46,808 nt of DNA from an uncultured Methyloceanibacter sp. (GTDB taxonomy: Bacteria > Pseudomonadota > Alphaproteobacteria > Rhizobiales > Methyloligellaceae), in assembly GCA_964458245.1 (NCBI GenBank), contig CAYWIA010000001.1, forward strand, positions 33,540-80,347, given 5' to 3'. This document shows positions 10,447-36,642 of this stretch, piece by piece (position 1 is the stretch's first letter; each line of letters starts with the position of its first letter). A program made the position numbers and the translations under genes. The notes below the pieces were generated by a model. It saw only the letters and a list, made by a program, of their open reading frames with translations. It made no database searches and was not told where the DNA came from.

Positions 10447-10460
10447 GCCGAATTTTACGG

Positions 10461-15233: not shown

Positions 15234-15941
15234 ATGACCGACTTTATTGACGCCTTCCGCACAGCCCTCGGCCTCATCGTCACGCTCGACCCGGATCTGG
15301 TCGAAATCCTCGTCCTCTCCATCAAGGTCAGCTTGTCGGCGGTAGTGATTGCTAGCCTGCTCGGATTTGCCATTGGCGGAGCCTTGGCGGTCTACCGTTT
15401 CCCGGGGCGCGGCGCCGTATCAGCCGTGCTCAGCGCTCTGATGGGGCTTCCGCCGGTTGTCGCCGGGCTTGTTGTCTATCTGCTGTTGTCCAATGTAGGG
15501 CCGCTCGGTGTGCTTCAGCTCCTCTACACGCCGACAGCCATGATCATCGCCCAGGTCGTTCTGGTCACGCCAATCATCGGCGCCCTGACGCGGCAGGCCT
15601 GCCAGGACCTGCTTGAGGAATACGACGAGCAGCTGCGCTCGCTGGGCGCTTCATCCAGTGCTATTGTCGCCACACTGCTTTGGGACGGTCGTTATCGCCT
15701 GATCACCGCAGTGCTCGCCGGCTTCGGCCGTGCGATTGCCGAGGTTGGCGCCGTCATGATCGTTGGCGGCAATATCGATCACGTGACGCGGACGATGACG
15801 ACCGCCATCGCCTTGGAGACCTCGAAAGGAAACATTGCGCTCGCGCTGGCGTTGGGGATCGTGCTTCTGACTATTGCCCTGGCCGTCAACGCCTCTCTGA
15901 TTTGGGTCCAGCGTCTTGCCAATCGTCTCGCCTATGCTTGA
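15234..15941 (+). CDS. tupB: Tungstate ABC transporter permease
   Basis: LMGLPPVVAG, GFGRAIAEVGA, TRTMTTAIALE. Confidence 0.88.
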   Translation: MTDFIDAFRTALGLIVTLDPDLVEILVLSIKVSLSAVVIASLLGFAIGGALAVYRFPGRGAVSAVLSALMGLPPVVAGLVVYLLLSNVGPLGVLQLLYTPTAMIIAQVVLVTPIIGALTRQACQDLLEEYDEQLRSLGASSSAIVATLLWDGRYRLITAVLAGFGRAIAEVGAVMIVGGNIDHVTRTMTTAIALETSKGNIALALALGIVLLTIALAVNASLIWVQRLANRLAYA

Positions 15942-16698: not shown

Positions 16699-16717
16699 GC
16701 AGTTCAGGAGGTGTCCG

Positions 16718-17557
16718 GTGAATATTCATAGACGACTGCTGCTAGGCCTTGGCGCCGCATTCCTGCTCGCCTCTCTTGCGTCGACGGGATTCGCGGCGGA
16801 AGACGACTTCATCATCGTGCAGTCCACCACATCCACCCAGAACTCGGGGCTGTTCGATCACATCCTGCCGAAGTTCACGGAGAAGACCGGGATTGACGTG
16901 CGTGTGGTCGCCGTGGGCACGGGCCAGGCCCTCAAGAACGGAAGAAACGGCGACGGCGACGTCGTGCTCGTCCATTCCAAGCCCGATGAGGAAAAGTTCG
17001 TCGCCGAAGGCTGGGGGGTGAAGAGACACGACGTGATGTACAACGACTTCGTCATCGTGGGGCCGGCGTCCGACCCGGCTGGGATCGCGGGATTGAAGGA
17101 CGCCGACCAGGCGCTGGCCAAGATCGCCGAGGCGGAGGCGCCGTTCGCCTCACGCGGCGACGACTCCGGAACGCATAAGGCGGAGCGCGATCTATGGGAG
17201 CAGGCCGGGGTCGATCCAACCAAAGGGAGCGGTGACTGGTACCTCGAAACCGGCTCAGGCATGGGCGCCACGTTGAACACCGCCGTCGGTAAGCATGCGT
17301 ACACGCTCGCCGACCGCGGCACGTGGCTGAGTTTTGCCAACAAAAACGGCTTTGAAGTCCTCGTCGAGGGCGATCCCAAGCTCTTCAATCAGTACGGCGT
17401 CATCCTCGTCGATCCGGCGAAGCACCCACGTGTAAAAGCTGAGAAGGGGCAAGCCTTCATCGACTGGTTGACCGGCGCGGAAGGGCAGAAGGCCATTGCG
17501 AGTTACAAGATCGACGGGCAGCAGCTCTTCTTCCCGAATGCGCGTCCGGGCACTTAG
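16718..17557 (+). CDS. tupA: Tungstate-binding periplasmic protein
   Basis: STTSTQNSGL (TTTS-type motif), GTGQAL, SRGDDSGTH, DRGTW, signal peptide, AGGAGG RBS. Confidence 0.92.
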   Translation: MNIHRRLLLGLGAAFLLASLASTGFAAEDDFIIVQSTTSTQNSGLFDHILPKFTEKTGIDVRVVAVGTGQALKNGRNGDGDVVLVHSKPDEEKFVAEGWGVKRHDVMYNDFVIVGPASDPAGIAGLKDADQALAKIAEAEAPFASRGDDSGTHKAERDLWEQAGVDPTKGSGDWYLETGSGMGATLNTAVGKHAYTLADRGTWLSFANKNGFEVLVEGDPKLFNQYGVILVDPAKHPRVKAEKGQAFIDWLTGAEGQKAIASYKIDGQQLFFPNARPGT

Positions 17558-21115: not shown

Positions 21116-21273
21116 CCTAGAACGAGCGCGTTCAAACCGGCTTGCGGGCGGTCCGGGTGACCGACGATGTCACGCAACCGTCATGGGTCCCCGGCGTGGC
21201 CCGGCTTCGGTTCTTCCGCCGGCGTTCCTTTTGATGCCGCAATGCTGGTGGAATGTCCTCTCTTTCGAGGAGG

Positions 21274-21453
21274 TTCGAGTACGCGGGCGAGTCGCGGGAG
21301 TTCCGCGAGGCGAGCGCCAATATGTATCTCACCTTCCTGCTTGCGCTCGCCGGCGCCGAGAGCCGCCAGGATATCGGCTGGGTCATCGTCGGTGGTCTTC
21401 TGGTGGGCACCCTGTTCACGCTGTTCGTGATCCCGGTGGTCTACGCCTACCTG
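21274..21453 (+). pseudogene. Remnant of an AcrB/RND transporter gene (two fused C-terminal pieces)
   Basis: FEYAGESREFREASANMYLTFLLALA (pre-TM8/TM8-like) joined in frame to GAESRQDIGWVIVGGLLVGTLFTLFVIPVVY (TM12-like). Confidence 0.75.
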
Positions 21454-21724
21454 CCAGACGCGCGTCCATCGAGTCCGATGAGACGGTGCCCGGCCCGGAA
21501 GGTGGCCACGGCAAAGAGGGCGCTGCCGCTTCGCACCCGGTCCCTGCGGCGGAGTAGTATTTGCGCCGCAATAAGCGCGGAAAGGCGCGCACAATCTGCA
21601 TTATTTGCGCGTATTCGACGGGCAGGATGTTGAATCTTTAGGCATTCAAGAGCCGAGCGCTGTTTCGCAAGATTTCGTGCACGGAAACCTGCCAATTGCT
21701 CGGCCGACCCAGCCTTTTTTTGCG

Positions 21725-21754
21725 TACCCCCTAATAGTTACTCCCTCAAGAGGA
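21725..21754. promoter_or_regulatory. NarL-type 7-2-7 boxes upstream of the ABC substrate-binding gene
   Basis: TACCCCC-TA-ATAGTTA (21725-40) and a weaker overlapping TACTCCC-TC-AAGAGGA (21739-54). Confidence 0.55.
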
Positions 21755-21992
21755 TTGTCTCCGAAGGGCATAAATCCCGAAACTCCTAGGTGAATTCGTA
21801 TTCTCAGCCATGCGGCGTGGCTGTGAAATGGTGGTGTGGACGTTACTTGAAGCAAGGACGCCATGAGCAACAGGTCTGAGCCTTCTACCGCCTTGCCCGC
21901 TGCAACCGCCGCAATCCCGTTCGTAGGCAAATGAGTGTCAGGCCGGTCGCCCGTCTCCACGGTCGTCCCGCCCTTCGACGTGGAGGGACCAC

Positions 21993-23282
21993 ATGACAAA
22001 GTTTCAGATCAATCGCCGCGATTTCCTTTCGACCACCGCCGCCGCCACGGTCATGGCCGGCGTTTCCATGCCGAAGCTCGCCTTCGCGGCCGACAAGGTC
22101 GTGAAGATCGGTTTCCTCGCGCCGCTTACCGGCGCGGTTGCCGCGTGGGGCAAACCCGGCCTCGACGGCTGCAAGATCTGGGCTGACTGGGTCAATGCCG
22201 ACGGCGGCATCAAGATCGGCGACGATGTCTACAAGGTCGAATTCGTCGCCTATGACGACGAGTACGATCCCAGCATCGCGCGCACCGGCGCGGTCAAGCT
22301 TATCAAGGAGGATGACGTCAAGTTCATCATGATGCTTGGCGGCGACCCTTGGCCGGGCGCGGCTCCGGTGGCGGAAAAGGAGAACATGCTGGTCTCGACG
22401 CTCCTGCCGAGCGACCTGTCGCCCGAGACGAAAATGCTGGTCGCGCCATGCGAGGTGCACCCGATCTATAATGTCACCGGTGTCGAGTGGTTGGCCGAGA
22501 ACAAGCCCGACCTGAAGACCGCGGTCATTTGCGCTCAGGACGACTCGCTCGGCAAGCCGTCGGTCGCGACCTATCTGGCCGCATTCGAGGCGGCGGGCAT
22601 CGAGGTTCTGGGCGATCCGATCTTCTTCGATCCGGCAACCACCGACTTCGCGCCGATCATGTCGAAGATGCTGGCGCTCAAGCCGGACATCATCTGCCTC
22701 GACACCTGCTACGCCGATTACGTGCACCCGCTCACCGAGCAGGCCTTCCAGCAGGGCTTCAAGGGACAGATGATCTCCTGCACGGCCGACTTCTATCAGA
22801 AGATGGTCGAGAAGACTTCGAAGGAGTTCATGGAAGGCTTCATCTTCCAGTTCCCGGACTTCGACGATCCCAAGCTCAACGAGCCTCACGTCAACTTCAA
22901 CAAGCCGAACGAGTTCTACGCTGAATACGTGAAGCGCTTCGGCGAGGGCGAGTGGGGCGCCGTGTCGTGGGAATATGCCTCGATCATGGATCTTTGGTCC
23001 GACGCCGCACAACGCGCCGACAGCACGGACCCGGAGAAAGTGCTGGAGGCCATGAAGGTGGGCGGCACTGGCAAGCAGGCCTTCGGCGAGGCCGACTGGT
23101 GGGGCAAGGAGCTCTTCGGCATCGACAACGCGCTCGTCGGCCTCTGGCCCGTGGTCGTCATCAAGGACGGCAAGGCCAAGATCCAGGATTTCAAATCCAT
23201 CCCGGCGTGGTGGGACAAGCACAAGGATCTTCTGATCAAGCACATGGAAGCGCTCGATCAGATGTACTATCAGCGCAGCTGA
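21993..23282 (+). CDS. HAAT/LivJ-family ABC substrate-binding protein with Tat signal
   Basis: NRRDFL Tat motif, KIGFLAPLTG..AAWG, YDDEYDP, TTDFAP. Confidence 0.88.
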   Translation: MTKFQINRRDFLSTTAAATVMAGVSMPKLAFAADKVVKIGFLAPLTGAVAAWGKPGLDGCKIWADWVNADGGIKIGDDVYKVEFVAYDDEYDPSIARTGAVKLIKEDDVKFIMMLGGDPWPGAAPVAEKENMLVSTLLPSDLSPETKMLVAPCEVHPIYNVTGVEWLAENKPDLKTAVICAQDDSLGKPSVATYLAAFEAAGIEVLGDPIFFDPATTDFAPIMSKMLALKPDIICLDTCYADYVHPLTEQAFQQGFKGQMISCTADFYQKMVEKTSKEFMEGFIFQFPDFDDPKLNEPHVNFNKPNEFYAEYVKRFGEGEWGAVSWEYASIMDLWSDAAQRADSTDPEKVLEAMKVGGTGKQAFGEADWWGKELFGIDNALVGLWPVVVIKDGKAKIQDFKSIPAWWDKHKDLLIKHMEALDQMYYQRS

Positions 23283-23337
23283 GCACGTCCTGCTGGGTGC
23301 AAGGTCTGGTCTAGCGTCCGAGACGGGATTTCCTGCG

Positions 23338-23372
23338 CTCCGCCACTGGCGGAGGGGCTGTTCATGCCCCTC
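23338..23372 (+). other. Intercistronic hairpins after the substrate-binding gene (possible mRNA stabiliser or attenuator)
   Basis: CTCCGCCA-C-TGGCGGAG and an overlapping GAGGGGC-TGTTCAT-GCCCCTC. Confidence 0.4.
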
Positions 23373-23431
23373 GCGCTAACCGGTATAATGCGTCCGGCAC
23401 CGAGCCCAAACCTGGCGCATCACGGAGCCTT

Positions 23432-24307
23432 GTGATGACCGTTGAGTTGTTCCTTCAAACCGTCGTCAATGCGACCTACGCGGCGAGCTACATGGCGCTC
23501 ATCGCCGTCGGCTTCGTGCTGATCTTCGGCGTGATGGGCGTGGTCAACTTTGCCCATGGCGAGCTCTATATGGCGGGCGCCTACGTGGTTGTTGCACTCT
23601 ATGCCGATCAAGCCCTCCCATTCTTTGTTGCCGTCGCCGCCGGCCTGGTCTTTGTCGGGCTGCTCGGACTTCTCATGGAGTTCGCTCTGTTCCGACCATT
23701 GCGGGACAATCCACTGGGAGGGCTGATCGCCTCGATCGGCTTCCTTCTGATTCTCCAGACGATTGCGGTGCTCGGCTTCGGCGTTCGCATGGAGAACGTC
23801 CCGCCTTCGACTCAGGACAAGATCGTGTTCCTGGACGGTGCGGTGCTGACCTATCAGCGGCTCTACGTCATCCTGGCCGCGGTTGGGTTGCTGACGGCGC
23901 TTTGGCTGTTTCTACGCAAGAGCAAGTTCGGCTGGGCGTTGCGGGCTTGCGCGCAAGATCGTGAGGCCGCCGTCCTGCAAGGCATGTCGATCAACCAGAC
24001 CGCACGGCTTGCGATGTTCATCGGCGCGGCCCTCGCCGGGGTAGCCGGTGCGCTGACCGCGCCGCTTGTCTCGCCCACGCCGTTCATGGGGCACTCGGTC
24101 ATCGTCACCGCCTTCATCATTATCATTGTCGGCGGCTTGGGCTCCCTCGAAGGCGCGGTGCTCGTCGCCATCCTCTATGCCTTCGTCCACACCTTCGTGA
24201 CCACGCTCTACGACGGGACGCTGGCCAATATCGTCGGCCTGCTGTTGATGCTTGCCGTCCTGATCGTCAAGCCGACGGGTCTGTTTGGAGCGAAAGAACG
24301 TGCCTAA
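23432..24307 (+). CDS. Liv-type ABC permease (LivH-like)
   Basis: FGVMGVVNFAHGE, GWALRACAQD, GGLGS. Confidence 0.9.
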   Translation: MMTVELFLQTVVNATYAASYMALIAVGFVLIFGVMGVVNFAHGELYMAGAYVVVALYADQALPFFVAVAAGLVFVGLLGLLMEFALFRPLRDNPLGGLIASIGFLLILQTIAVLGFGVRMENVPPSTQDKIVFLDGAVLTYQRLYVILAAVGLLTALWLFLRKSKFGWALRACAQDREAAVLQGMSINQTARLAMFIGAALAGVAGALTAPLVSPTPFMGHSVIVTAFIIIIVGGLGSLEGAVLVAILYAFVHTFVTTLYDGTLANIVGLLLMLAVLIVKPTGLFGAKERA

Positions 24308-25313
24308 GCCTGAGCCCAGTTCGACGATTGCCTGGATACTCGGCTTCGGCCTGCTCGCGGTCGTTCTGGTCGTGCTTCCGCACCTGCTCTCGTTCTCGCA
24401 GCAGGAGATCCTGGTCTTCCTGGTCATCAACGTGCTGCTGGTCTGCAGCTACCGCCTGCTGACGCTGACCGGCGAATGGTCTTTGGCGCACGCGGTCATC
24501 ATGGGCGTCGGCGCCTACACATCGGCGCTGGCGGCCAAGGAGCTTCAGGTTCCTGTGCCTGTTGCCATGCTCCTCGGGGCGTCCATGGCGGGTTTTCTCG
24601 CCTTCCTGCTGAGCTTTCCGCTGTTCCGGATGAAAGGCTTTTACTTCCTGATCGGCTCGTTTGCCGCGGGCGAGGTGATCCGGCTCATGTGGAAGTGGAG
24701 CGATCTCACCTTCTTGTTCGGCGGACCGAAGGGCATCAAGCGCATCCCGTCAATGCCGGACATCTTCTCGATCGATTTCTACGAGCCGGTGAACTACTAC
24801 TATCTCTGCCTCGTCGTTGTGGCGGTGTCCCTTCTCATTCTCTATCGCGTCGAACGCTCGCGGATTGGCCTGACCTTTCACGCCATTCATTGGCAGGACA
24901 AGCTTGCCGAGTCCGTCGGCGTCAATACGTTCCGCTATCGCATGCTGGCCTTTGTGATTTCGGCCTTCTTCGCCGGTCTCGCCGGCGCGCTTTATGCCCA
25001 CTATGTGGGTGCGGTCGCCCCGAACAGGTTCGGGGTGGAGGAGATGGTCTACATTTTGATCTGGGCCATCGTCGGTGGAACCGCGACCTTCTACGGGCCG
25101 ATCATCGGCGTGGTGGCGCTCACCATCCTCAACGAGGTGATCCTGCGCTCGCTCGACGTAGACGAGATGCGGCCGATGTTTTACGGCGCGATCCTCATCA
25201 TCTCCATCTTGTTCCTGCCGAACGGACTGGAAAGCCTGCTGCCGAAGATCAAAGGGTGGTTCGCCGGCCGCAAGGAGCGGCGCGACGCCCTGGCGGAGCA
25301 GCCGGCCGAATAG
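24300..25313 (+). CDS. Liv-type ABC permease (LivM-like)
   Basis: GEWSLAHA..GVGAY, RMKGFYF, GGPKG, AESVGVN. GTG start overlaps the upstream stop. Confidence 0.9.
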   Translation: MPKPEPSSTIAWILGFGLLAVVLVVLPHLLSFSQQEILVFLVINVLLVCSYRLLTLTGEWSLAHAVIMGVGAYTSALAAKELQVPVPVAMLLGASMAGFLAFLLSFPLFRMKGFYFLIGSFAAGEVIRLMWKWSDLTFLFGGPKGIKRIPSMPDIFSIDFYEPVNYYYLCLVVVAVSLLILYRVERSRIGLTFHAIHWQDKLAESVGVNTFRYRMLAFVISAFFAGLAGALYAHYVGAVAPNRFGVEEMVYILIWAIVGGTATFYGPIIGVVALTILNEVILRSLDVDEMRPMFYGAILIISILFLPNGLESLLPKIKGWFAGRKERRDALAEQPAE

Positions 25314-25317
25314 TCTC

Positions 25318-25908
25318 TCAGAGGTCCGATACCGGCGGTGCCAGGAGCAGGAGCGCCGCCGCCATCAGCTTCCGCGTATCGTTGAGCATGGCGGGACGCT
25401 CGCGTCGCCAGACAATGAGCGTGTCGCCGGCCGGGGCCGTAACAGCGGCATCCGGAGCGTTCAAGGCCTCGAGGCGCTTGACCGTTTCGGCGGCGATTTC
25501 CCGCCAGCGCTGCTGCCACAGGCCGCGATAGGTGTCCCGGTGGCGCGCCTCCATGCGCAAATGGAACATCGAGCTGCGCGCAACCCGCGGAGCGTCCATG
25601 CGGGCGATCCAGGGACCGGAGCCTTTCCAAGCCTCCAGGGCCTTGGCGAACAGCGAGGCCTTGGCTTGGTCGTCTGCCGCGAGGCTCAAGCACACGCCGT
25701 AGTTCGCGAGGCTCGTGCCGAGGCGTGGATCGATCGGCTCGAAATTCGCGCGAGCCAGCTGGAGCGCTTGTCCGGCTTCCTCCTTGGCGCGAAGGTAATC
25801 GTTCTGCACGGCCGCGTCGGCCGTGGACTCGGCCGCCGTTTCCCAGGCGAGATCGGTCTCGCTCCAGCCGGCGTTGACGAGTTCTTTGAGGTCCCAGGTC
25901 TCAGGCAC
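25318..25908 (-). CDS. Hypothetical helical protein with one TPR-like repeat
   Basis: ALQLARANFEPIDPRLGTSLANYGVCL resembles a TPR repeat. GTG start overlaps the livF-like stop by 8 nt. Confidence 0.75.
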   Translation of the reverse strand: MPETWDLKELVNAGWSETDLAWETAAESTADAAVQNDYLRAKEEAGQALQLARANFEPIDPRLGTSLANYGVCLSLAADDQAKASLFAKALEAWKGSGPWIARMDAPRVARSSMFHLRMEARHRDTYRGLWQQRWREIAAETVKRLEALNAPDAAVTAPAGDTLIVWRRERPAMLNDTRKLMAAALLLLAPPVSDL

Positions 25909-26608
25909 CGAGATACGCGCGCCTCACATGCTCGTTGTCGTGCAACTCGGGGGCAGGGCCTTCGAGGGCGATCTTGCCCGTCTCCAGTACATAAGCATAG
26001 CGCGCTAGCCTGAGCGCAAGTTCGGCATTCTGCTCGACAAGCACCACGGGCACGCCCCGCTCCACGATATCGCGGATGATCCGCGCCATCTCCTGGACCA
26101 TGACCGGCGACAAGCCCATCGAGGGCTCGTCCATGATCAGCATCTTCGGCCGGGACATGAGCGCCCTGCCGATCGCCAGCATTTGCTGCTCGCCGCCGGA
26201 AAGCGACCGGGCCCATTGTCCGCGGCGCTCTTTCAGGCGCGGGAAGCGCTTGAAGACGTCTTCGAGATCGGATTCGATGGCTGGCCTATCGGAGCGCAGA
26301 AAGGCGCCGGTGCGGAGATTCTCCTCGACCGTGAGGTCCGGGAATACGCGCCGGCCTTCGGGAACATGGGCGATCCCGAGCGCCACGATTTTTTCCGGTG
26401 CGAGCGTGTCGATGCGCTTGCCCGCGAAGATGATCTCGCCTTGGCTGAGGCGCGCGAGCCCTGAGATGGCCCGCAAGGTCGTGCTCTTTCCGGCGCCGTT
26501 GGCGCCGATGATGGTGACGATGCCGTCGTCGGAGACAGCCATGTTGACGCCTTTGAGGGCCGCGACCTTGTGGTAGTGAACCGTGACGTCGTTGATCTCA
26601 AGCAGCAT
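25901..26608 (-). CDS. Liv-type ABC ATPase (LivF-like)
   Basis: GANGAGKS, VPEGRRVF, LSGGEQQM, VEQNA, AYLG. Confidence 0.92.
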   Translation of the reverse strand: MLLEINDVTVHYHKVAALKGVNMAVSDDGIVTIIGANGAGKSTTLRAISGLARLSQGEIIFAGKRIDTLAPEKIVALGIAHVPEGRRVFPDLTVEENLRTGAFLRSDRPAIESDLEDVFKRFPRLKERRGQWARSLSGGEQQMLAIGRALMSRPKMLIMDEPSMGLSPVMVQEMARIIRDIVERGVPVVLVEQNAELALRLARYAYVLETGKIALEGPAPELHDNEHVRRAYLGA

Positions 26609-27380
26609 CGCTCGCGCTCCCGAGATAGGCTTCGATCACGGCGGGATTGTTGCGCACTTGCTCGGGCGTTCCTTCGGCGAGGAGCGTGCCGAAATTCATG
26701 ACCGTGATCGCGTCGCACAGGCCCATCACGGCCTGCATGTCGTGCTCGATCAGCATGATGGTCACGCCTTGCTCTTCTCGCACGAGCTTGACCAGTTCGA
26801 TCATCCGTCTCGTTTCTTCCGGGTTCATGCCGGTGAAGGGCTCATCGAGCAGCATCAGTTTCGGATCTGCGGCCAGCGCGATGGCCAGGCCGAGGGCGCG
26901 CTGATGGCCGTGGGACAGATTGGCGGTGAGCTCGTCGGCAAGTTTTTCCAGTCCTAGAAATTCGAGGATGCCGTGGGCCTTCTGCTCCGCGGCCTCTTCG
27001 GAGGCCCGGTCGGTGCCGAGGATGCGCTTGACGAGACCGGCCTTGGCGCTGCGGTGACAGCCAAGACAGACATTGTCGTGTACGCTCAGCTCGTGAAACA
27101 GGGTCGTGCCCTGAAACGTCCGGATCAGCCCGAGCTCGGCCAATGCGCTGGTCGCGCGCCCCGAGATGTCCTCTCCGAGATAGACGACCTTGCCCCGGGA
27201 GGGTGCATAGAAACCGCTGATGACGTTGAACGTGGTTGTCTTGCCGGCGCCGTTGGGTCCGATCAGGCCATGGATCGAGCCGGCTTGAACATCGAGATTG
27301 AAATCGTTCACGGCGACGATGCCGCCGAAAGTCCGAGCCAGGCCGTGGACCTGAAGAATGGATTGCTCGGCGGTTGTCAT
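26598..27380 (-). CDS. Liv-type ABC ATPase (LivG-like)
   Basis: FGGIVAV, GPNGAGKTT, RTFQ, LDEP, IEHDM, VIEAYLG. Confidence 0.92.
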   Translation of the reverse strand: MTTAEQSILQVHGLARTFGGIVAVNDFNLDVQAGSIHGLIGPNGAGKTTTFNVISGFYAPSRGKVVYLGEDISGRATSALAELGLIRTFQGTTLFHELSVHDNVCLGCHRSAKAGLVKRILGTDRASEEAAEQKAHGILEFLGLEKLADELTANLSHGHQRALGLAIALAADPKLMLLDEPFTGMNPEETRRMIELVKLVREEQGVTIMLIEHDMQAVMGLCDAITVMNFGTLLAEGTPEQVRNNPAVIEAYLGSASDAA

Positions 27381-27459
27381 CGGCGCGGTCGGCCCCTTTG
27401 AGCAGGCAGATCGAGGTGATTACCACACCTCACCCGGCCCATGCATTCTTCCAAGATCG

Positions 27460-27679
27460 TACCTCCTTGGGGTTAGGAGCAAGGGGATGCGATCGGCAAA
27501 TCCGCCTCAAGGCCGGACGGACCCGGACAGACTTTTGTCAGCCCCGATAAGGGAACAGTCAGTGTCCAAGCGCTCCGGACAGAAGACAATTACTCTCCAA
27601 GAGGTAGGCCGCTTGTCAGCCAAGGCCAAAGGCCGATCCGAAGCCAAAAACGGGGCTCTCGCCTAACCCTTTTGGGGTA
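27460..27679. promoter_or_regulatory. Three NarL-type 7-2-7 boxes in the divergent livG/tmm promoter
   Basis: TACCTCC-TT-GGGGTTA (27460-75), TACTCTC-CA-AGAGGTA (27591-606), TAACCCT-TT-TGGGGTA (27664-79). NarL consensus is TACYYMT-N2-AKRRGTA. Confidence 0.7.
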
Positions 27680-27754
27680 ACTAACCGAGGGAATTGTGAA
27701 GAAAGCTTCGCCGCGAGCAAGATCGAAAAGCGACAAGAAGGGGAGATGCAGTCG

Positions 27755-29143
27755 ATGGCGAATGACTCGAAAGATGCGCGGCCGATCAAGGATCAGCGCG
27801 TATGCATCATTGGGGCGGGCCCGAGCGGCACAGCCCAGCTTCGTGCTTTCGAGGCGGCTAAGAAAAACGGAGCAGAGATTCCCGAACTCGTCTGTTTCGA
27901 GAAGCAAGCGAACTGGGGCGGCCTGTGGAACTACACGTGGCGCACGGGACTCGACGAATATGGCGAGCCGGTCCATTGCTCGATGTATCGGTATCTCTGG
28001 TCGAACGGACCCAAGGAGTGTCTGGAGTTTGCCGACTACTCATTCGAGCAGCATTTCGGCCGCGCCATCCCGTCTTACCCGCCGCGCGAAGTGCTTCACG
28101 ACTACATCATGGGTCGGGCCGAGAACAGCGGCGCCAAGAAATTCGTCCGTCTCCAGACGGCCGTACGCTGGGTTCAGTATTCACCGGAGACAAAGAAGTT
28201 CACGGTCACCGTGAAGAACCTTCCCGAGGACCGCATCTATTCGGAAGAGTTCGACTATGTCGTCGTGGCGAACGGCCACTTCTCGACGCCCAACATGCCG
28301 GAGTTCGAAGGGCTCAGCATGTTCCCGGGCCGTGTCCTTCACGCACACGATTTTCGCGATGCGCTCGAATTCAAGGGCAAGGACGTCCTGTTGGTCGGGT
28401 CCTCATACTCTGCCGAGGACATCGGCACGCAGTGCCATAAATACGGCGCCAACTCGATCACCTTCAGCTATCGCACCAAGCCGATGGGCTTCGATTGGCC
28501 CGAGGGTTTCGAGGAGAAGCCGCTCCTGAAGAAGACCGTCGGCAACGTCGCCCATTTCTCGGACGGCTCGACCAAGAAGGTGGATGCCATCGTGCTGTGC
28601 ACGGGCTATCTGCATCACTTCCCCTTCCTGCCCGACGACCTTCGTCTGAAGACGCACAACAGGTTGTATCCGCCGGACATCTATAAGGGCGTCGTCTGGA
28701 TCAACAATCCAAAGCTGATGTATCTCGGCATGCAGGACCAGTACTACACCTTCAACATGTTCGACGCGCAGGCTTGGTATGCGCGCGACGTGATCCTAGA
28801 CCGGATCAAATTGCCGGACCGGGCCGCCATGAAAGCCGACAGCGAGGCATGGGTGAAGCGGGAAGAGGCCTGCAAGACCGAAGAGGAGAAGATCGACTTT
28901 CAAACGGAGTATGTCCGTGATCTCCTCCAGGCGACCGATTATCCGCCTCTGGATGTCGATCATGTCGGTGAGCTGTTCAAGGAGTGGGAGCACCACAAGG
29001 AGGAAGGTATCCTGACCTATCGGGACAGGTGCTATCCTTCGACACTCACGGGCACGATGTCGCCGCAGCACCACACGCTTTGGATGGACGCATTGGACGA
29101 TAGTCTTGGTGCGTTTTTGAAAGCGCCTGAGGCCGCCGAGTGA
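27755..29143 (+). CDS. tmm: Trimethylamine monooxygenase (bacterial flavin-containing monooxygenase)
   Basis: [49 protein letters not shown] motif, GSSYSAEDI. Adjacent to tdm. RBS spacing favours the ATG at 27755. Confidence 0.92.
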
Positions 29144-29212
29144 ACGACGCGCGACGGCGACGAGAAGCGGGTCTGCACGAGAGATCGGCCGGGCGCGCCT
29201 AAGGAGATAGCC

Positions 29213-31528
29213 ATGAGCCTCGTAGGGAGGGAGGTCCTGCCTGCCTCCTCCGTCAAGACGACCACACGCGTCCGCCGCATGCGCGTCGCGGGCGGCGGCG
29301 TGGTCGCCGTCGGTGTGCGTGCGGGCGACAAGCTCAAGATCGTCGACCCCGAAGGTCTCCAGCCGGGCCTGCTCTACGCCATCTCCGAGAAGGAAGGCGG
29401 CCAGGCGGTGATCCCGGCCTTGAGCCGGCTCGACGCACCGACACTCGATCAGGCGCTGGCGGCGGCAATGGACGGCAGAGCCGCCGCGGCCAACGCGGTG
29501 GCGACCCGCGGCGTCGCGGCCGAAGACGTGCGCGGCGCCAATGTCTTCGGCGAGGAGACGGCGCCGGGTACGCAAGTGCGGTTTGACATCGAGGCGGATG
29601 GCACGTTGCTCGTCTTCGCGCCCGGCGAGGCCATGACGCCGGACGCGCAGAATCCGCCGACCGAGCTCCTCGTGGAGATCACCCACGACCACGATGCGGA
29701 GCTCGACCCGCCGCCGCCGCTCGCCGAGCCGAAGCTCGACCTCAGGGTCGATGCGGCAACGGCCTCGGCCTACCGGGTAAAGGCGGGCGACTACATCCAA
29801 ATCGTCGACGTCGAGGGCCGCCAATGCTCGGACTTCCTCGCCTTCGACGCGGCGGCGCTGGAGAGCGGCACGGAGAACGGTCTCGACGCCACCACGACAC
29901 ACTCATTGATGGGCACGGCGGCGCCGGGCCCAGGCCTCCATTCGAAATATTTCGACCAGACGCAGAAACCTCTGGTGGAGGTCGTCCAAGACACCGTGGG
30001 CCGGCACGATACGTTCATGCTCGCCTGCAACGCCAAATATTACGAGGACATGGGCTATCCGGGGCATTCCAACTGTACCGACAATTTCAACAACGCCCTG
30101 TCGTCCTATGGGATCGCGCCGCGCAAGGGGTGGCCGGCGATCAACTTCTTCTACAACACCTTCGTCGACGATAATGACGGCATCGGCCTGGATGAGCCGT
30201 GGTCGCGGCCCGGAGATTACGTGCTGCTTCGGGCGCTGACTGATCTGGTCTGCGCCTCCTCGTCCTGCGCCGACGATGTCGATCCCGCCAATGGCTGGCT
30301 GCCCACCGACATCCAGGTTCGGGTCTACGATAAGGACAACTCGTTTCCCAAGGGGAAGGCTCACCGCATGACGCCCGACGCCCAGCCGCGCATGACGCGC
30401 GAAAGCGGGTTCTACCCCCGTTTCGCGGAGCTCACGCGCAAGTTCGAAGATTATCGCGGCTTCTGGCTGCCCTCCTGCTTCTCCGACGTGGAGCCGATCG
30501 AGGAATATTGGGCTTGCCGGGAGAAGGCGGTGATCATGGATCTCAGTGCCCTCCGCAAGTTCGAGGTGACAGGTCCGGACGCCGAGACCCTGTTGCAGCT
30601 CGCCGCCACCCGCAACATCCGCAAGCTGAGTCAGGGCCAGGTGGTTTACACGGCGTTCTGCTACGAGCATGGCGGCATGATCGACGACGGGACCATCTTC
30701 CGGCTATGCCAGAACAATTTCCGGGTTGTTTGCGGCGACGAATATCTGGGTGTCTGGCTGCGCCAGCTTGCCGAGGATCGCGGCTTGAAGGTGTGGGTCC
30801 GCTCATCGACCGATCAGTTGCACAACGTCGCGCTGCAGGGCCCGAATTCTCGAGACATCCTCAAAGAGATCGTGTGGACGCCGCCGCACCAGCCGACCAT
30901 GGCGGAACTGAAATGGTTCCGCTTCACCATCGGGCGCATCGCCGAGCAGCCGGTCGTGATCTCACGGACCGGCTATACGGGCGAGTTGGGTTTCGAGATC
31001 TGGTGTCATCCGGATGCCGCGACCAAAGTGTTCGACGCAATCTGGGAGGCCGGTCAACCTTTCGGGCTTCGCCCCTTCGGCCTTCTGGCGTTGGATATGG
31101 TTCGCATCGAGGCCGGGCTGGTCTTCTTCGGCTACGAGTTCTGCGATCAGACCGATCCCTTCGAGGCCGGCATCGGCTTCACCATCCGAAAGGACATGGA
31201 AGACGAGCCGTTCATCGGCTCCGAGGCGCTGATCCGCCGCAAGGCCAATCCTCAGAGAAAGCTGGTCGGTCTCGATATCGACAGCAATGAGTCTATCCAT
31301 CACGGCGACCCCGTCTACAAAGGGCGGGCGCAGGTGGGCGTGGTGACCAGCTCCACGCGCTCCCCGATTCTGAAGAAGAACATCGCGCTCGCGCGACTGG
31401 ACATTTCGGAGTCGGAGCTCGGCACCGGCGTCGAGATCGGCAAGCTGGACGGCCATCAGAAGCGCATCCCGGCCAAGGTCGTCGGCTTTCCGCATTACGA
31501 TCCGCAAAAGACCCGGGTGCGGGCGTAA
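29213..31528 (+). CDS. tdm: TMAO demethylase (DUF1989 + GcvT-like)
   Basis: DUF1989 motifs EGRQCSDF, RHDTFMLAC, HSNCTDN, SSCADD; C-terminal GcvT fold (DLSALRKFE, SRTGYTGELG, RIEAG); downstream of tmm. Confidence 0.88.
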   Translation: MSLVGREVLPASSVKTTTRVRRMRVAGGGVVAVGVRAGDKLKIVDPEGLQPGLLYAISEKEGGQAVIPALSRLDAPTLDQALAAAMDGRAAAANAVATRGVAAEDVRGANVFGEETAPGTQVRFDIEADGTLLVFAPGEAMTPDAQNPPTELLVEITHDHDAELDPPPPLAEPKLDLRVDAATASAYRVKAGDYIQIVDVEGRQCSDFLAFDAAALESGTENGLDATTTHSLMGTAAPGPGLHSKYFDQTQKPLVEVVQDTVGRHDTFMLACNAKYYEDMGYPGHSNCTDNFNNALSSYGIAPRKGWPAINFFYNTFVDDNDGIGLDEPWSRPGDYVLLRALTDLVCASSSCADDVDPANGWLPTDIQVRVYDKDNSFPKGKAHRMTPDAQPRMTRESGFYPRFAELTRKFEDYRGFWLPSCFSDVEPIEEYWACREKAVIMDLSALRKFEVTGPDAETLLQLAATRNIRKLSQGQVVYTAFCYEHGGMIDDGTIFRLCQNNFRVVCGDEYLGVWLRQLAEDRGLKVWVRSSTDQLHNVALQGPNSRDILKEIVWTPPHQPTMAELKWFRFTIGRIAEQPVVISRTGYTGELGFEIWCHPDAATKVFDAIWEAGQPFGLRPFGLLALDMVRIEAGLVFFGYEFCDQTDPFEAGIGFTIRKDMEDEPFIGSEALIRRKANPQRKLVGLDIDSNESIHHGDPVYKGRAQVGVVTSSTRSPILKKNIALARLDISESELGTGVEIGKLDGHQKRIPAKVVGFPHYDPQKTRVRA

Positions 31529-31581
31529 GTCGCTCCGCGCGCGGGGTCTGCCCGGAAGACATCGACAATCGGCGGGAAAGC

Positions 31582-32988
31582 TTAGCCGCTCGCGCGTACG
31601 CTTCGCGCCGGCTTCGAGAGTGACTCGATCTCGACCGTCTCGATGCGACCCACGCCCACATTCCTGGCCCGCGCGGCTGCCGTCGAGGCCAAGGAAACGA
31701 GCTCATCGGCGGATTCATTGCCCGTCGGCTTCGTGACGACCCCGATGCTGGCGGTCAGGAACATCTCGTTGTTGCCGTCCACGACCGGCCGGCGCAGCGC
31801 CTGTTGGATTTCTACGGCGACGGCGGCGGAGTCTTCATTGGCCTCCGCACTTTCTTGCAGGATCGCAAACTCGCTGTCGGTCCAAAGGCAAAGCGAATCG
31901 ATGGGGCTGAGCATCGTTTCGATGCGCTTGCCGACATCCAGGAGCGCGCGTTCTCTAAACTCGGTTCCCAGACTCTCGCGCCACTTGGCGAACTGGTCGA
32001 GATGGACCACGAGCACGACGAAGGAATCGTGCGGACGGGACTTTCTCCGGCGCAAGGCCATCTCGAGTCGATCCAAGAACAGGGTAGGGGTCGGCAGGCA
32101 GGTTCCCGGGTCGAGCAGGCTGTCGCTTCTCAGGCGAAGCTGCTCATGCTTCTCCCGCGTGACGTCGGTGATGAAACCCTCCACGCCGAGAAGTTCGCCG
32201 CTGATGGAGTAATTCCCCCGGCCGCGCTCGAGGACCCACTTCTCTTCGCCGCGCGCCGTTCGTATCCGGTACATCAGCTCGAAAGAGCGATGCTCGCGCA
32301 ACGAGACCTGGACGTTCTGCCAAACCTGCTCCCGGTCTTCCGGTACGATCAGATCGGCATAGGTCAGGCGCTCGCTGTTGATCAACGCCTCCGGCGGATA
32401 GCCGGTCAGCACCTCGCAGCCCTTGCTCATATATTCCATGGTCCACTGACGGTCGTTGCGGCAGCGATAGACGAGGCCGGGCAGGTTGTTGATCAACGTT
32501 TCCAAGGTGCGATGGCTTGCTTCCTTGAGGCCCTCCGCTTGCACGCGATTGCCCACATCGAACAGCGTTCCGACAAAGCCCATGCAGCGCCCGTTGTCGG
32601 CCACCACGGCCTGTGCGCCGGCCTCCAAATGGACGGTTTTGCCGGAGCTCGTCAGGAAGCGCAGCACGAGCGCGGCAGTCCTTTGCGGGTCTCGCTTGCG
32701 GGCCTCCAAGAAGCGGAGCCAACGCTCTTCATCCTGCGGATGCAAATAGGCGGAGCGGCCCAGCGAGCGCGTCTCTTGGAGGGAGAAGCCGGTCAGCCGC
32801 GTCCAGGCCGCGTTCACGTAGCGGAGGCTGCCGCTCGGACCTGTGACGAAAACCACGATGTCGATCGCATCGACAAGTGGCGCAACGAGCGGCGTTGAGC
32901 CGGTGCAGAACTCGCTCGTGAGGCTGGTCGCCAACTCGTCACTTTCGACCAGGAGTTCGGTGAGGACCTCAATCTGCGCAGTCGACAT
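31582..32988 (-). CDS. PAS-PAS-GGDEF-like protein with degenerate active site
   Basis: Two PAS/PAC domains (YVNAAW..LTG..HPQD; MEYMS..LTGY..PEDR..W..ERG), then DPGTCLP..., TASIG. The GGDEF position reads TDSEF. No EAL domain. Confidence 0.82.
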   Translation of the reverse strand: MSTAQIEVLTELLVESDELATSLTSEFCTGSTPLVAPLVDAIDIVVFVTGPSGSLRYVNAAWTRLTGFSLQETRSLGRSAYLHPQDEERWLRFLEARKRDPQRTAALVLRFLTSSGKTVHLEAGAQAVVADNGRCMGFVGTLFDVGNRVQAEGLKEASHRTLETLINNLPGLVYRCRNDRQWTMEYMSKGCEVLTGYPPEALINSERLTYADLIVPEDREQVWQNVQVSLREHRSFELMYRIRTARGEEKWVLERGRGNYSISGELLGVEGFITDVTREKHEQLRLRSDSLLDPGTCLPTPTLFLDRLEMALRRRKSRPHDSFVVLVVHLDQFAKWRESLGTEFRERALLDVGKRIETMLSPIDSLCLWTDSEFAILQESAEANEDSAAVAVEIQQALRRPVVDGNNEMFLTASIGVVTKPTGNESADELVSLASTAAARARNVGVGRIETVEIESLSKPARSVRASG

Positions 32989-33077
32989 GCTTGTGGCTTC
33001 TAAATGGGTTCGATGGAGCGTAGCCAAGTTACACCATTGCAGTATGCGCGGTGAGAAAATGAAGCAGGCAAGAGTAG

Positions 33078-33093
33078 TACTACCTTGGAGGTA
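33078..33093. promoter_or_regulatory. NarL-type 7-2-7 box upstream of the PAS gene
   Basis: TACTACC-TT-GGAGGTA, about 90 bp upstream of the ATG at 32988. Confidence 0.6.
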
Positions 33094-33247
33094 GCGCGGC
33101 GGGTCAGCTGGTCTGACTATTGTCAAGAATAGTGGGGGGTAATGTGCCAGGTCTTTGCAATGAAGGTGGGACTGAGCACAACTGAGACGCGCATCAGAAG
33201 CAAGATAACGTCAGACGAGGTCTTCTCGATCCGAGTATCGCCGGGCT

Positions 33248-33892
33248 TCAGGCCGTGGTGAGTGCCCAGACGGCGGCCTCGAGCCGCGATTGCAGGTTCA
33301 GCTTCCGCAGCAGGTTTTTCACATGCACTTTCACGGTGCCGTCGCTGATATCCAGCTCGCGCGCGATGTGCTTGTTGCTCTTGCCGGCGGCGATCAAGCG
33401 TAGGATCTGCCGCTCGCGTGCCGTCAGGCACTCTTCGTCTGTAGGCGGCGCCGCCGGCGTGCCGTCCCGCATGGTTTCCAGCAGCATGCTCATCAACGGC
33501 TCGGTAAATACGGTTTCGCCGCGGGCCGCGAGCCGGAGCTTGTCGAGAATCTCTTCGGGCTCCGAGCCCTTGAGCAGGTAGCCTTCGGCGCCTGCGCGGA
33601 CCGCCCTGATGAAGTCCTGCTCGGCGTCGGACACCGTGAGCATGATGACCTGGGTGTCCAGTCCGCTATCCTTGATCTGCTTGAGGGCGCTGAGACCGCT
33701 GCTTTCTCGCATGTTGAGATCCATCAGCACCAGATCGGGCTTGAGCGAGGAGGCCAGCTGAACGCCTTCCTCGGCGGAGGCTGCCTCGCCGACGACTTCG
33801 AAGCCTTCTTGTGCCGCGATGAGCTGGGCCACGCCGCATCGAAACAGCGGGTGATCGTCGACCAGCAATACTCTGCATGACTCCGTGTTCAT
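33248..33892 (-). CDS. NarL/NarP-like response regulator (REC + LuxR HTH)
   Basis: VDDHPLFR, LMDLNM, LTVSD, GYLLK, SNKHIARELDISDGTVKVHVKNLLRKL..SRLEAAVW. Confidence 0.92.
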   Translation of the reverse strand: MNTESCRVLLVDDHPLFRCGVAQLIAAQEGFEVVGEAASAEEGVQLASSLKPDLVLMDLNMRESSGLSALKQIKDSGLDTQVIMLTVSDAEQDFIRAVRAGAEGYLLKGSEPEEILDKLRLAARGETVFTEPLMSMLLETMRDGTPAAPPTDEECLTARERQILRLIAAGKSNKHIARELDISDGTVKVHVKNLLRKLNLQSRLEAAVWALTTA

Positions 33893-33902
33893 GGCAAAAT
33901 CC

Positions 33903-35105
33903 TCAGCCTACGATGGTACCCGATAATGTGCTTCTTTCGCGACAGCATTGGACATAGAGGCGCGTGCCGCCTCCCTCGCGATCCTCGACGCGCAAGACTC
34001 CGCCGAGACTCCGCGCCCGCTCCTGCATGATGATGAGTCCATGATGCGGTTCGGCGTCCTGCATCGTCAGGCGCATGCCGATGCCGTTGTCCTCCACGCT
34101 CAAACAGACGGTGCCGTCTTCCTTGAGACGGGCCGAGACCCAGCAATAGTTGGCGTGGGAGTGACGCACCACATTGCACAGGGCCTCGCGAAGGATGAGC
34201 AGAAGCTGCATCTCTTCGGCCACTGTCAGCACGCCGACGGGAAGGCGATTGTCCAGATCGAAGGCAATGGAGCTGCGCCGCTCGAATTCGTCGATGGAGT
34301 CTTCCAGAGCCTGGGCGAAAGTCCTTCCATGCATCGTCAAGCGGAAGGTCGTGATCAGCTCGCGCAGTTGCAGATTCGCCGTGCTGAGCGTGCTGCGTAC
34401 CTTCTGCAGTGCTAAATCGACTTCCGAAGCATGATCGCCGTCGCTCTTGAGCATGGTTTGCAGCAGGCTGACTTGCACTTTCAAGTAAGACAGCGATTGA
34501 GCCAGCGAGTCGTGCAACTCACGGGCGATGGCGGCGCGCTCCTCGCTCTGGGCATTGCGCAGCTTCATGCGCGCGCAGCGCGCGCTGTAGAGAATGCCGG
34601 CCAGGTACTCGCCGTAGCCCGGCAAGGACTCCAAGGCCGATGGCGGCACGGTGCTACGGTCGCCGGAGATCCGCAGCAGCAGCAGCCCGTGGCCGCACGG
34701 CCCCTGGTCGAAGAGTTGCGCTAGGATGGTCGATCCCGCATCTTCAGGATCGGCGAACGCTTCCGACGCCGTGGCGCTGCCGTTTTTCTGGTAGAGGCCG
34801 CGGTCGTCGGCGATGCGCATCCAGCGATCGCGATCGTCTGGCCCTATACAGGCAAGAAGTGTGAGTTGGCGTCCGCTTTCGGTGCTGACGAAGATCGTGC
34901 CGGCCTCGGCGCCCGACAATTCGAGGATGTGGGAGAGCACCAGATCGAACGGCTCCGCGGAGTCCGGATCGGCGATCAGTTGCGTCAGCACCTTGTGAAG
35001 TAGGTCGATCGCGCCTCGCGCGCCGCGCGCGCCCGGATCGTCCAACGGCAAGAGCCCGGCCGGCTTCTCCGCTATGGCGAGCTTCATGCCGCCACCGCCA
35101 GTCAT
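33903..35105 (-). CDS. Soluble NarX/NarQ-like histidine kinase (GAF-like + HisKA_3 + HATPase)
   Basis: EERAAIARELHDSLAQSLSYLK, QLRELITTFR, REALCNVVRHS, DNGIG, HHGLIIMQERA. No transmembrane segments seen. GGGAGGG RBS. Confidence 0.88.
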   Translation of the reverse strand: MTGGGGMKLAIAEKPAGLLPLDDPGARGARGAIDLLHKVLTQLIADPDSAEPFDLVLSHILELSGAEAGTIFVSTESGRQLTLLACIGPDDRDRWMRIADDRGLYQKNGSATASEAFADPEDAGSTILAQLFDQGPCGHGLLLLRISGDRSTVPPSALESLPGYGEYLAGILYSARCARMKLRNAQSEERAAIARELHDSLAQSLSYLKVQVSLLQTMLKSDGDHASEVDLALQKVRSTLSTANLQLRELITTFRLTMHGRTFAQALEDSIDEFERRSSIAFDLDNRLPVGVLTVAEEMQLLLILREALCNVVRHSHANYCWVSARLKEDGTVCLSVEDNGIGMRLTMQDAEPHHGLIIMQERARSLGGVLRVEDREGGGTRLYVQCCRERSTLSGTIVG

Positions 35106-35910: not shown

Positions 35911-36642
35911 TCACGCGACCCGTTCGCGCCGCGCGTAGGCCCGGATCCGTTCCAGCCAAGCATCGTAAAGCCGGTCGGTGAACTGGCTATGCATGGTGGC
36001 GCAGCGTTCGGCGAGGCGCTCGCGGATCTGCTCGATGGTTTGAACGCTGTCGGACGCGGGCGCGATGTCATAGCCGTAGAGGCGCAGCCATTCTTCCAGC
36101 ATCGCGGGTGTAACTTCCGCATGCGCCACCGTGGTGACGCTGTTGCCCAGCGCGTAAGCTTGCTCCGGACAGTAGTCGCTGGAGTAGAGCGGCGCCGCGC
36201 CGGGCGGTAGGCTGAAGGCGTCGTGGTGCCAGATCAAGATGTCAAAGCGGTCGGGCACGGCTTGGAGCCACGCCTTGGCGACCGGATTGTCGGCCTTTTG
36301 CACCGCGTACCAGCCAATCTCCTTCGCCGGCATTGGCGCGACGGTGCCCCCCAGCGCTTTGGCGATAAGCTGGCTGCCCATGCAGTGGCCCAGCATCGGA
36401 AGGTCTTTCGCCGCGGCCGTGCGGATCAGCGCCATTTCCTCGGCGAGCCACGGATAATCGTCGTTGACGCTCATCGTGCCGCCCAAGAAGGCCAGTCCGG
36501 AGACGTCGTCGATCTGCTGCGGCACCGCATCGCCCCGATCTAGGCACACCAGCTCAACAGGGACGCCGTGGTTCGCCAGATACTCCTCGAGGCGTCCTGA
36601 CTGGATCCAGTCCTCGTGGCGGAAGATGCGAATGGGTTTCAT
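35911..36642 (-). CDS. Class I glutamine amidotransferase-like protein (stand-alone)
   Basis: LGGTMSVND, GHCMGSQL nucleophile, EIGW, WHHDAF, HAE triad. Confidence 0.88.
   Translation of the reverse strand: MKPIRIFRHEDWIQSGRLEEYLANHGVPVELVCLDRGDAVPQQIDDVSGLAFLGGTMSVNDDYPWLAEEMALIRTAAAKDLPMLGHCMGSQLIAKALGGTVAPMPAKEIGWYAVQKADNPVAKAWLQAVPDRFDILIWHHDAFSLPPGAAPLYSSDYCPEQAYALGNSVTTVAHAEVTPAMLEEWLRLYGYDIAPASDSVQTIEQIRERLAERCATMHSQFTDRLYDAWLERIRAYARRERVA

What the first reader, a model, noticed from the sequence alone, without database searches (positions are those of the whole stretch)
21725..35105. Candidate undescribed regulon: a NarXL-derived system apparently rewired to trimethylamine uptake and oxidation
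Seen in sequence: five good 7-2-7 inverted repeats of the NarL type sit in intergenic DNA. They lie upstream of the ABC binding protein (21725 TACCCCC-TA-ATAGTTA), in the divergent ATPase/tmm-tdm promoter (27460 TACCTCC-TT-GGGGTTA; 27591 TACTCTC-CA-AGAGGTA; 27664 TAACCCT-TT-TGGGGTA) and upstream of the PAS gene (33078 TACTACC-TT-GGAGGTA). The local regulator keeps the NarL recognition helix TVKVHVK. Established: E. coli NarL binds TACYYMT heptamers in 7-2-7 geometry through these residues, and the tmm/tdm regulator I know (Ruegeria TmoR) is GntR-type. No nitrate or nitrite reductase gene lies in the window. Inference: this two-component pair controls TMA import and catabolism, a role I do not know to be described.
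Basis: partly seen in the sequence, partly recalled or inferred. Interest (0 to 1): 0.82.

Follow-up and report, generated by a model that had tools for sequence, protein, structure and literature searches.

The report
Nitrate-sensor offshoot beside methylamine breakdown genes
A two-protein switch descended from the classic bacterial nitrate sensor has lost its nitrate-binding part but kept its DNA-recognition residues, and its conserved DNA boxes sit in front of trimethylamine and dimethylamine breakdown genes in several methylotroph lineages, so it likely switches on methylamine catabolism, a role we found no description of.

Summary
All five boxes are present and non-random. The regulator passes the NarL model and keeps K188/V189/K192. 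The kinase is NarX from the GAF domain onward, without transmembrane helices, HAMP, nitrate P-box or cysteine cluster.

The kinase occurs in 13 of 117 Methyloceanibacter genomes, all beside a TMA-oxidising cassette: tmm-tdm in 8, the unrelated TMA dehydrogenase-ETF cassette in 5. The box stands upstream of the enzyme in 12 of 12 inspected. Seven tmm loci from kinase-less congeners have no box, even with the same ABC transporter adjacent. Distant relatives (37-47% identity) and a second P-box-less clade (Methylophilaceae, Methylophaga) sit beside tmd, tmm/tdm, tmoP or dmm genes with the same boxes. None of 60 other NarX loci has such genes; 20 have narG. Boxes form a strong+weak tandem abutting a TTG, a class II activator layout.

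Untested: binding, induction and the signal (likely TMA or DMA). 'Uptake' rests on gene neighbourhood. A few members sit beside other genes. Ten literature searches found no description. Verdict: likely a NarXL offshoot regulating methylated-amine catabolism; a new variant of a known kind.

The parts
21725..21740 (+). strong 7-2-7 box upstream of the ABC binding-protein operon
   Evidence: conserved 253-258 bp before the gene in 7 of 7 genomes shown
21739..21754 (+). weaker tandem box (+14), directly followed by TTGTCT (21755-21760, putative -35); conserved GAAACT at 21779-21784 (putative -10, 18-bp spacer)
   Evidence: promoter assignment inferred from conservation
21993..23282 (+). Liv-type ABC periplasmic binding protein; substrate inferred (methylated amine or TMAO)
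   Evidence: Pfam Peripla_BP_6; 83-89% orthologues lie beside tmm also in kinase-less genomes; no close solved structure
23432..25313 (+). two ABC permeases (23432-24307, 24285-25313)
   Evidence: BPD_transp_2
25318..25908 (-). 196-aa conserved hypothetical protein that travels with the transporter
   Evidence: no Pfam hit; 58-71% orthologues in related loci
25901..27380 (-). ABC ATPases LivF-like (25901-26608) and LivG-like (26598-27380)
27460..27475 (-). strong box 80 bp upstream of livG-like gene, with weak +14 tandem box (27446-27461)
   Evidence: 80-83 bp from the gene in 6 of 6 genomes shown
27561..27606 (-). box 27591-27606 abutting leftward TTGTCT-N17-GACACT (27589-27561); in TMADH loci the same element precedes the gcvT/dmmD-like gene
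   Evidence: 4 of 4 loci shown
27664..27699 (+). strong box (27664-27679) + weak tandem box (27678-27693) + TTG, upstream of tmm; same element precedes tmd in relatives
27746..29143 (+). tmm, trimethylamine monooxygenase
   Evidence: NF058570 833 bits, cut-off 675
29213..31528 (+). tdm, TMAO demethylase
   Evidence: NF053776 1299 bits, cut-off 1100
31582..32988 (-). PAS-PAS protein with degenerate GGDEF domain, co-inherited with the kinase in both P-box-less clades
   Evidence: GGDEF motif replaced by WTDSEF
33078..33093 (-). box 90 bp upstream of the PAS gene
   Evidence: present in most carriers, not detected at threshold 10 in G017
33248..33892 (-). NarL-type response regulator (D58; K174, R178, K188, V189, H190, K192 as in E. 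coli NarL)
   Evidence: NF007935 270 bits, cut-off 250; best PDB hit 1a04; residue roles from PMC10853779 section read
33903..35105 (-). soluble NarX-derived kinase: GAF (24-185) + HisKA_3 (H198) + HATPase; no TM, HAMP, P-box or CxxxxCxxC
   Evidence: below NarX/NarQ cut-offs; max 19-residue hydropathy 1.36; GAF fold, 4g3k Z 12.5, rmsd 3.8, 152 aligned; aligns to a P-box NarX from its residue 263 on

Best explanation
The kinase and regulator are a NarXL offshoot without the nitrate-binding domain that likely activates genes for importing and oxidising methylated amines, by binding the conserved NarL-type 7-2-7 boxes upstream of them. Shown: box presence and conservation, retained DNA- and alphaCTD-contact residues, loss of the nitrate sensor, co-occurrence with tmm-tdm or TMA dehydrogenase. 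Inferred: a cytoplasmic signal, most likely TMA or DMA (about 50%; otherwise a downstream C1 product or flavin/redox state), acts on the GAF domain or the co-inherited PAS protein; H198 passes phosphate to D58; dimers fill a strong upstream and a weak promoter-proximal box that abuts the -35 (about -44, as at E. coli yeaR) and recruit RNA polymerase. Predicted targets in this genome: the ABC binding-protein operon, the ATPase operon, tmm-tdm and the PAS gene.
For: Boxes non-random. Kinase in 13 of 117 congeners, each beside tmm-tdm or tdm (8) or TMADH-FeS oxidoreductase-ETF (5). All 5 near-identical TMADHs (>=90%) in the genus are in kinase carriers. Box upstream of the enzyme in 12 of 12 carriers inspected, versus best scores <=6.1 upstream of tmm in 7 kinase-less congener loci, 5 of which have the same ABC transporter with no box. 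Distant clade members L032 and L033 (37-41%) carry boxes before tmd and a gcvT-like gene. Second P-box-less clade beside tmm/tdm/tmoP/dmmABC/tmd with boxes. Of 80 metagenome loci, 10 of 20 P-box-less ones have methylamine or ETF genes and 0 have narG; 0 of 60 others have such genes and 20 have narG. Tandem box mean score +5.2 at +14 versus -8.6 at -14. narG promoter of G024 has no box.
Against: No binding, expression or genetic data; the metatranscriptome contigs could not show regulation. No ligand pocket could be identified in the GAF domain; its conserved residues are mostly structural. Three second-clade loci sit beside other genes: L049 beside NnrS, a copper oxidase of NirK type and Crp/Fnr; L099 beside urocanase and wax-ester synthase; L085 beside a DAO-family enzyme. 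In this window the tmm promoter lacks the -10-like hexamer seen in relatives and is shorter. A generic sigma-70 scan did not pick these promoters. The genomes are related, so counts are not independent. 42 congeners use tmm-tdm without this system.
Confidence: 0.76

Rival explanations
1. The pair controls the same genes but senses redox, oxygen or flavin status (through the PAS protein or GAF) rather than an amine, tuning flavoprotein and ETF synthesis.
For: Targets are mostly flavoproteins; a box lies in the divergent region before ribBA in TMADH genomes; L049 lies beside denitrification regulators; E. coli NarQ responds to aeration (PMC8199190, passage read).
Against: Targets include O2-requiring Tmm/Dmm and O2-independent TMADH alike, plus transporters; the NarX cysteine cluster is lost; the narG promoter has no box; the ribBA-side box may instead serve the divergent DAO-gmaS-mgsABC operon.
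Confidence: 0.12
2. The system still responds to nitrogen oxides or general nitrogen status and uses methylamines as an alternative nitrogen source.
For: Regulator passes the NarL equivalog; Amt-family and gmaS genes lie near some members.
Against: [quoted passage not shown]
Confidence: 0.05
3. The regulator acts as a repressor, or the boxes are bound by another transcription factor.
For: E. coli NarL also represses some promoters (recalled); -35/-10 assignments are inferred only; no binding data.
Against: Boxes lie just upstream of, not over, the putative -35; alphaCTD contacts K174 and R178 are kept; other NarL-family proteins of this genome lack KVxxK; no second close NarL in 5 near-complete carriers; boxes are lost where the pair is absent.
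Confidence: 0.06
4. The boxes are chance or non-functional relics carried along on a mobile cassette.
For: The cassette is patchy in the genus (13 of 117), so co-inheritance alone could link boxes and kinase.
Against: Boxes are kept at fixed distances while flanking DNA diverges, across an enzyme swap and in 44-67% GC contigs of other lineages.
Confidence: 0.01

Closest known systems
NarX/NarQ-NarL/NarP nitrate two-component systems (PMC8199190, passages read; PMC10853779, passages and one section read)
   Same: Regulator passes the NarL model; K188/V189/K192 kept; 7-2-7 boxes; box next to the -35 as at yeaR (-43.5); kinase GAF-DHp-CA homologous to NarX (34% over 372 aa); nested among P-box NarX sequences in the tree.
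   Different: No periplasmic nitrate sensor, TM, HAMP or cysteine cluster in this kinase; degenerate or absent periplasmic region across the clade; boxes precede methylamine genes and not nar; a PAS-domain gene travels with the pair.
TmoR (GntR repressor of tmm) and TmaR (AraC master regulator) of Ruegeria pomeroyi (PMC13390433, abstract and Results read; GntR type from PMC13199381 Introduction)
   Same: Same pathway (tmm, tdm, dmm, gmaS-mgs).
   Different: One-component regulators of unrelated families; the paper's main text has no occurrence of 'two-component' or 'NarL'.
SecR of Aminobacter (PMC13199381, abstract and Introduction read)
   Same: NarL/FixJ-family regulator needed for growth on methylamines.
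   Different: Orphan, phosphorylation-independent, RcsB-like; controls serine-cycle genes, not amine oxidation. The regulator here has D58 and an adjacent kinase.
TorS-TorT-TorR (recalled, no call)
   Same: Two-component control linked to TMAO, with an accessory sensing protein.
   Different: OmpR-family regulator, periplasmic sensing, controls TMAO respiration rather than catabolism.

Membership tests
NarL response regulator | Whole-protein match above the NCBIfam NarL equivalog cut-off | tested here: met
   270.2 bits vs 250; second-clade regulators also pass
NarL response regulator | Base-contacting K188, V189, K192 in helix 9 | tested here: met
   alignment to 1a04; residues from PMC10853779
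NarL response regulator | Binds 7-2-7 heptamer sites | not testable with these tools
   sites conserved and non-random; binding not assayed
NarX/NarQ nitrate-sensing kinase | Periplasmic NarX-like sensor domain with P-box | tested here: not met
   no PF13675 in the protein or in 5 genomes; alignment to a P-box NarX begins at its residue 263
NarX/NarQ nitrate-sensing kinase | Two TM helices and HAMP | tested here: not met
   max hydropathy 1.36, no in-frame upstream extension; model shows GAF directly
NarX/NarQ nitrate-sensing kinase | GAF-like + HisKA_3 + HATPase cytoplasmic core | tested here: met
NarX/NarQ nitrate-sensing kinase | Whole-protein NCBIfam cut-off | tested here: not met
   NarQ 206 vs 553, NarX 177 vs 578
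Nitrate regulon | Boxes upstream of nitrate reductase genes | tested here: not met
   G024 narG upstream best score 1.6; G024/G043 flanks have only a 9.3 site about 6 kb away; no narG/napA over cut-off in G000, G057, G097
Trimethylamine monooxygenase / TMAO demethylase | NCBIfam equivalog cut-offs | tested here: met
Trimethylamine dehydrogenase (relatives' cassette) | Full-length match to TMADH with C30, Y60, S74, W105, W264, W355 | tested here: met
   1djn 1266 bits; residues read; their role in TMA versus DMA specificity is recalled
Active diguanylate cyclase (PAS gene) | GG(D/E)EF motif | tested here: not met
   WTDSEF-type in all clade members aligned; domain absent in Methylophilaceae-type members
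TMA/TMAO ABC importer | Substrate binding by the periplasmic protein | not testable with these tools
   neighbourhood only; PDB hits weak, E 4e-11

The most novel reading that the evidence does not exclude
A single ancient NarXL duplicate lost nitrate sensing, kept the NarL DNA code and became a dedicated methylated-amine-sensing three-part system (kinase, regulator, output-less PAS co-sensor). It controls interchangeable, non-homologous modules (TMADH-ETF, Tmm-Tdm, DmmDABC, TmoP) across alpha-, beta- and gammaproteobacterial methylotrophs, and is routinely mis-annotated as nitrate-sensing NarXL.
Probability: 0.45. Interest if true: 0.82.

Novelty: new variant of a known kind. Interest (0 to 1): 0.7.

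Why it matters
Regulation of methylamine oxidation is known only from one-component regulators in Ruegeria and SecR in Aminobacter; in our searches no regulator of TMA dehydrogenase was described. This gives a named, testable candidate with predicted binding sites, in loci that include cultured Methyloceanibacter, Methyloligella, Methylovorus and Methylobacillus by source names. It is a clean case of a two-component system changing input and targets while keeping its DNA motif. It warns that 'NarXL' annotations in methylotroph genomes do not imply nitrate sensing. If the signal is TMA or DMA, a soluble NarL-compatible sensor would be a ready biosensor part.

Tried and rejected
Complex prediction of the kinase dimer with the PAS-PAS region returned no verdict (score 0.03, mark 0.32), so it is not used either way. 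Single-sequence fold of the GAF domain was low confidence (pLDDT 46) and not used. Foldseek on the full model was dominated by the kinase domains. Public RNA runs held only short contigs at small shares and cannot show expression or regulation. Generic promoter scan was uninformative (2 found, 2.8 expected). A draw of 400 phylum genomes gave no member of this kinase clade, only weak kinase-core hits. Secondary matrix hits elsewhere in G000 (<=13.7) were not near recognisable methylamine genes and were dropped. Isolated strong boxes at G024:605025 (between chvI-like and PEPCK region genes) and G097:C9:231856 (near hemE) were not interpreted. Single origin of the two P-box-less clades is neither shown nor rejected by the kinase tree (p-AU 0.485); the regulator tree puts them on one side of a branch at 78/98, unstarred. 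The binding protein's substrate could not be assigned (no Atlas answer obtained). Three look-ups of earlier findings returned nothing. Ten paper searches found no description; the library lacks most subscription journals and I opened no supplements.
Full report
Observation. The five 16-mers are at the stated positions and lie between genes. Three are within 2 mismatches of a TACYYMT 7-2-7 site, of 27 such sites in the 2.23 Mb genome. In the three intergenic stretches 3 were seen against 0.048 expected, and 0 of 1000 shuffles reached 3. Leave-one-out matrices rank the held-out site 1, 1, 4, 4 and 6 genome-wide. With the full matrix (circular by construction) the five score 16.7-19.5 and the next best 13.7; other spacer lengths give 0-2 sites at >=16. 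Close relatives of the kinase are titled Methyloceanibacter.

Genes. tmm and tdm pass their curated cut-offs, and the regulator passes the NarL model. It aligns best to E. coli NarL and keeps K188, V189, H190 and K192, plus alphaCTD contacts K174 and R178; R179 is replaced (roles from PMC10853779, section read). Three other NarL-family proteins of the genome lack KVxxK. The 400-aa kinase falls far below NarX/NarQ cut-offs, has no hydrophobic helix and no upstream extension, and aligns to a P-box NarX only from the GAF region on, without the CxxxxCxxC cluster. Its model shows GAF, a long helix, DHp and CA (4g3k Z 12.5, rmsd 3.8 over 152; Atlas GAF neighbours for a homologue). About 40 homologues of near 400 aa head the search, so this is not a truncation artefact; more distant ones keep one or two TM helices with no P-box. 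PMC8199190 (passages read) calls the sensor domain the defining feature of nitrate kinases and selected its sequences by it, so this clade lay outside that survey. No such domain was found in 5 of 5 genomes and no second close NarL in 5 of 5 near-complete carriers.

Natural experiment. The kinase is in 13 of 117 congeners. In eight it lies beside tmm-tdm (G000, G016, G057, G090, G097, G124, G130) or a tdm fragment at a contig end (G041). In five (G017, G021, G024, G043, G132) the same slot holds TMA dehydrogenase (1djn, 1266 bits; Y60/S74/W105), an Fe-S oxidoreductase, ETF, a gcvT-like gene and tmoP. These five are the only genomes with a >=90% TMADH; three others have 45-47% homologues. The box upstream of the enzyme was found in 12 of 12 carriers inspected; G041's promoter was not fetched. 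Conversely, 42 congeners have a 62-65% tmm and no kinase hit. I fetched 7 of these 42: the best score upstream of tmm was <=6.1, and five carry the same ABC transporter (binding protein 83-89% identical) without boxes. Three loci from other families gave 0.5, 4.1 and 10.4. G024 and G043 have narG with no box nearby.

Wider distribution. Of 80 NarX-like metagenome loci, six belong to this clade and 14 to a second clade that has TM helices but no P-box or cysteine cluster. Named homologues of the second clade are Methylophilaceae, Methylovorus, Methylobacillus and Methylophaga. Methylamine or ETF genes were found in 3 of 6 and 7 of 14 loci (7 of 10 over 8 kb) and narG in none; the other 60 loci had none of those genes and 20 had narG. 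Caveats: one locus counts by etfA alone, some loci are near-duplicates (L042/L043, L053/L054, L044/L045), and four fragments too short for the tree were counted with the 60. Boxes precede tmd (L032, L033, L071), tmm, tdm, tmoP (L047, L054) and gcvT-like-dmmABC (L043, L047, L057, L088). Against the reading: L049 lies beside NnrS, a NirK-type copper oxidase and Crp/Fnr, L099 beside urocanase and wax-ester synthase, L085 beside a DAO-family enzyme. Each clade is well supported in the kinase tree (100, 99). Their union is not rejected (p-AU 0.485) and appears at 78/98 in the regulator tree. Both share an orthologous PAS gene with a dead or missing GGDEF; some gammaproteobacterial forms also have an EAL domain.

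Promoter layout. In 24 promoters for the binding protein, livG and tmm/tmd, a second weak box lies 14 bp downstream of the strong one (mean score +5.2, versus -8.6 at -14, which shares the same TA, and about -20 at most other offsets). In the binding-protein promoters (7 of 7) and tmm/tmd promoters (10 of 11) it is followed at once by TTG. The 27591 box abuts TTGTCW-N17-GAMACT in 4 of 4 loci. This matches class II activation at about -44, as at E. coli yeaR. It is inferred: a consensus scan did not find these promoters, and the window's own tmm promoter lacks the -10-like hexamer of its relatives. Because distant members have tmd and the 27591 element serves a gcvT-like gene there, tmm-tdm probably replaced the TMADH cassette in place (inference).

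Mechanism. Most likely a cytoplasmic methylamine signal (TMA or DMA) changes the GAF-DHp helix directly or through the PAS protein, the regulator is phosphorylated at D58, and it activates transport and oxidation genes. The signal is the weakest step: the GAF domain's conserved residues are a DPDSxEPF loop, F72 and W95, with no demonstrable pocket. Redox or flavin sensing is the main rival.

Known systems. PMC13390433 (abstract, Results) describes TmaR (AraC) and TmoR; PMC13199381 (abstract, Introduction) describes SecR and calls regulation of methylamine oxidation fragmentary. Passages of PMC11526790, PMC6417678 and PMC6256518 mention no such system. Ten searches found no description, within an open-access library and without supplements. 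Verdict: observation confirmed, interpretation supported and broadened; it works like NarXL, is not a nitrate-sensing NarX by the defining feature, and is a new variant of a known kind. Confidence 0.76, interest 0.70.

Noticed in passing
window 21253-21560: Short remnant of an AcrB-type RND gene just upstream of the ABC operon; a full RND gene occupies this position in G016 and G132 loci, suggesting a local deletion.
   Followed up: partly
L015:5782; L024:3799-5925; L109:2410-4517: A 676-aa molybdopterin oxidoreductase of unknown function is divergent from the ABC operon or has its own strong box in many carriers, and lies near tmm in some kinase-less genomes; no orthologue (>32%) was found in this genome. 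Candidate regulon member.
   Followed up: partly
window 35911-36642; L109:14355-15053: A class I glutamine amidotransferase lies directly downstream of tdm in four relatives and near the locus in others; possibly a gamma-glutamyl-methylamide-type hydrolase (guess).
   Followed up: no
L117:2364-4039: In TMADH genomes a box sits between ribBA and a divergent DAO-family gene heading gmaS-mgsABC, so the regulon may reach riboflavin supply or the N-methylglutamate pathway.
   Followed up: partly
G000 whole genome: No dmmABC and only about 30%-identical gmaS/mgsC hits, so the fate of dimethylamine made by Tdm is unexplained; the assembly is 88% complete. A tmoP homologue lies on contig C180.
   Followed up: partly
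window 27746-29143: tmm has 58% GC against about 63% for neighbours and belongs to an 84-99% cluster distinct from the 62-65% tmm of most congeners.
   Followed up: partly
window 8004-17557: Formate dehydrogenase, molybdenum cofactor genes and a tungstate ABC transporter, with glycine cleavage and serA/serB genes further left: a C1-metabolism neighbourhood, without boxes.
   Followed up: no
L023:7725-9146: A leucine-rich-variant repeat protein is conserved between the Fe-S oxidoreductase and ETF genes of TMADH cassettes in both clades; role unknown.
   Followed up: no
L114 (G124:C22): Kinase, livF, tdm and amidotransferase are split by apparent frameshifts, probably assembly errors.
   Followed up: no
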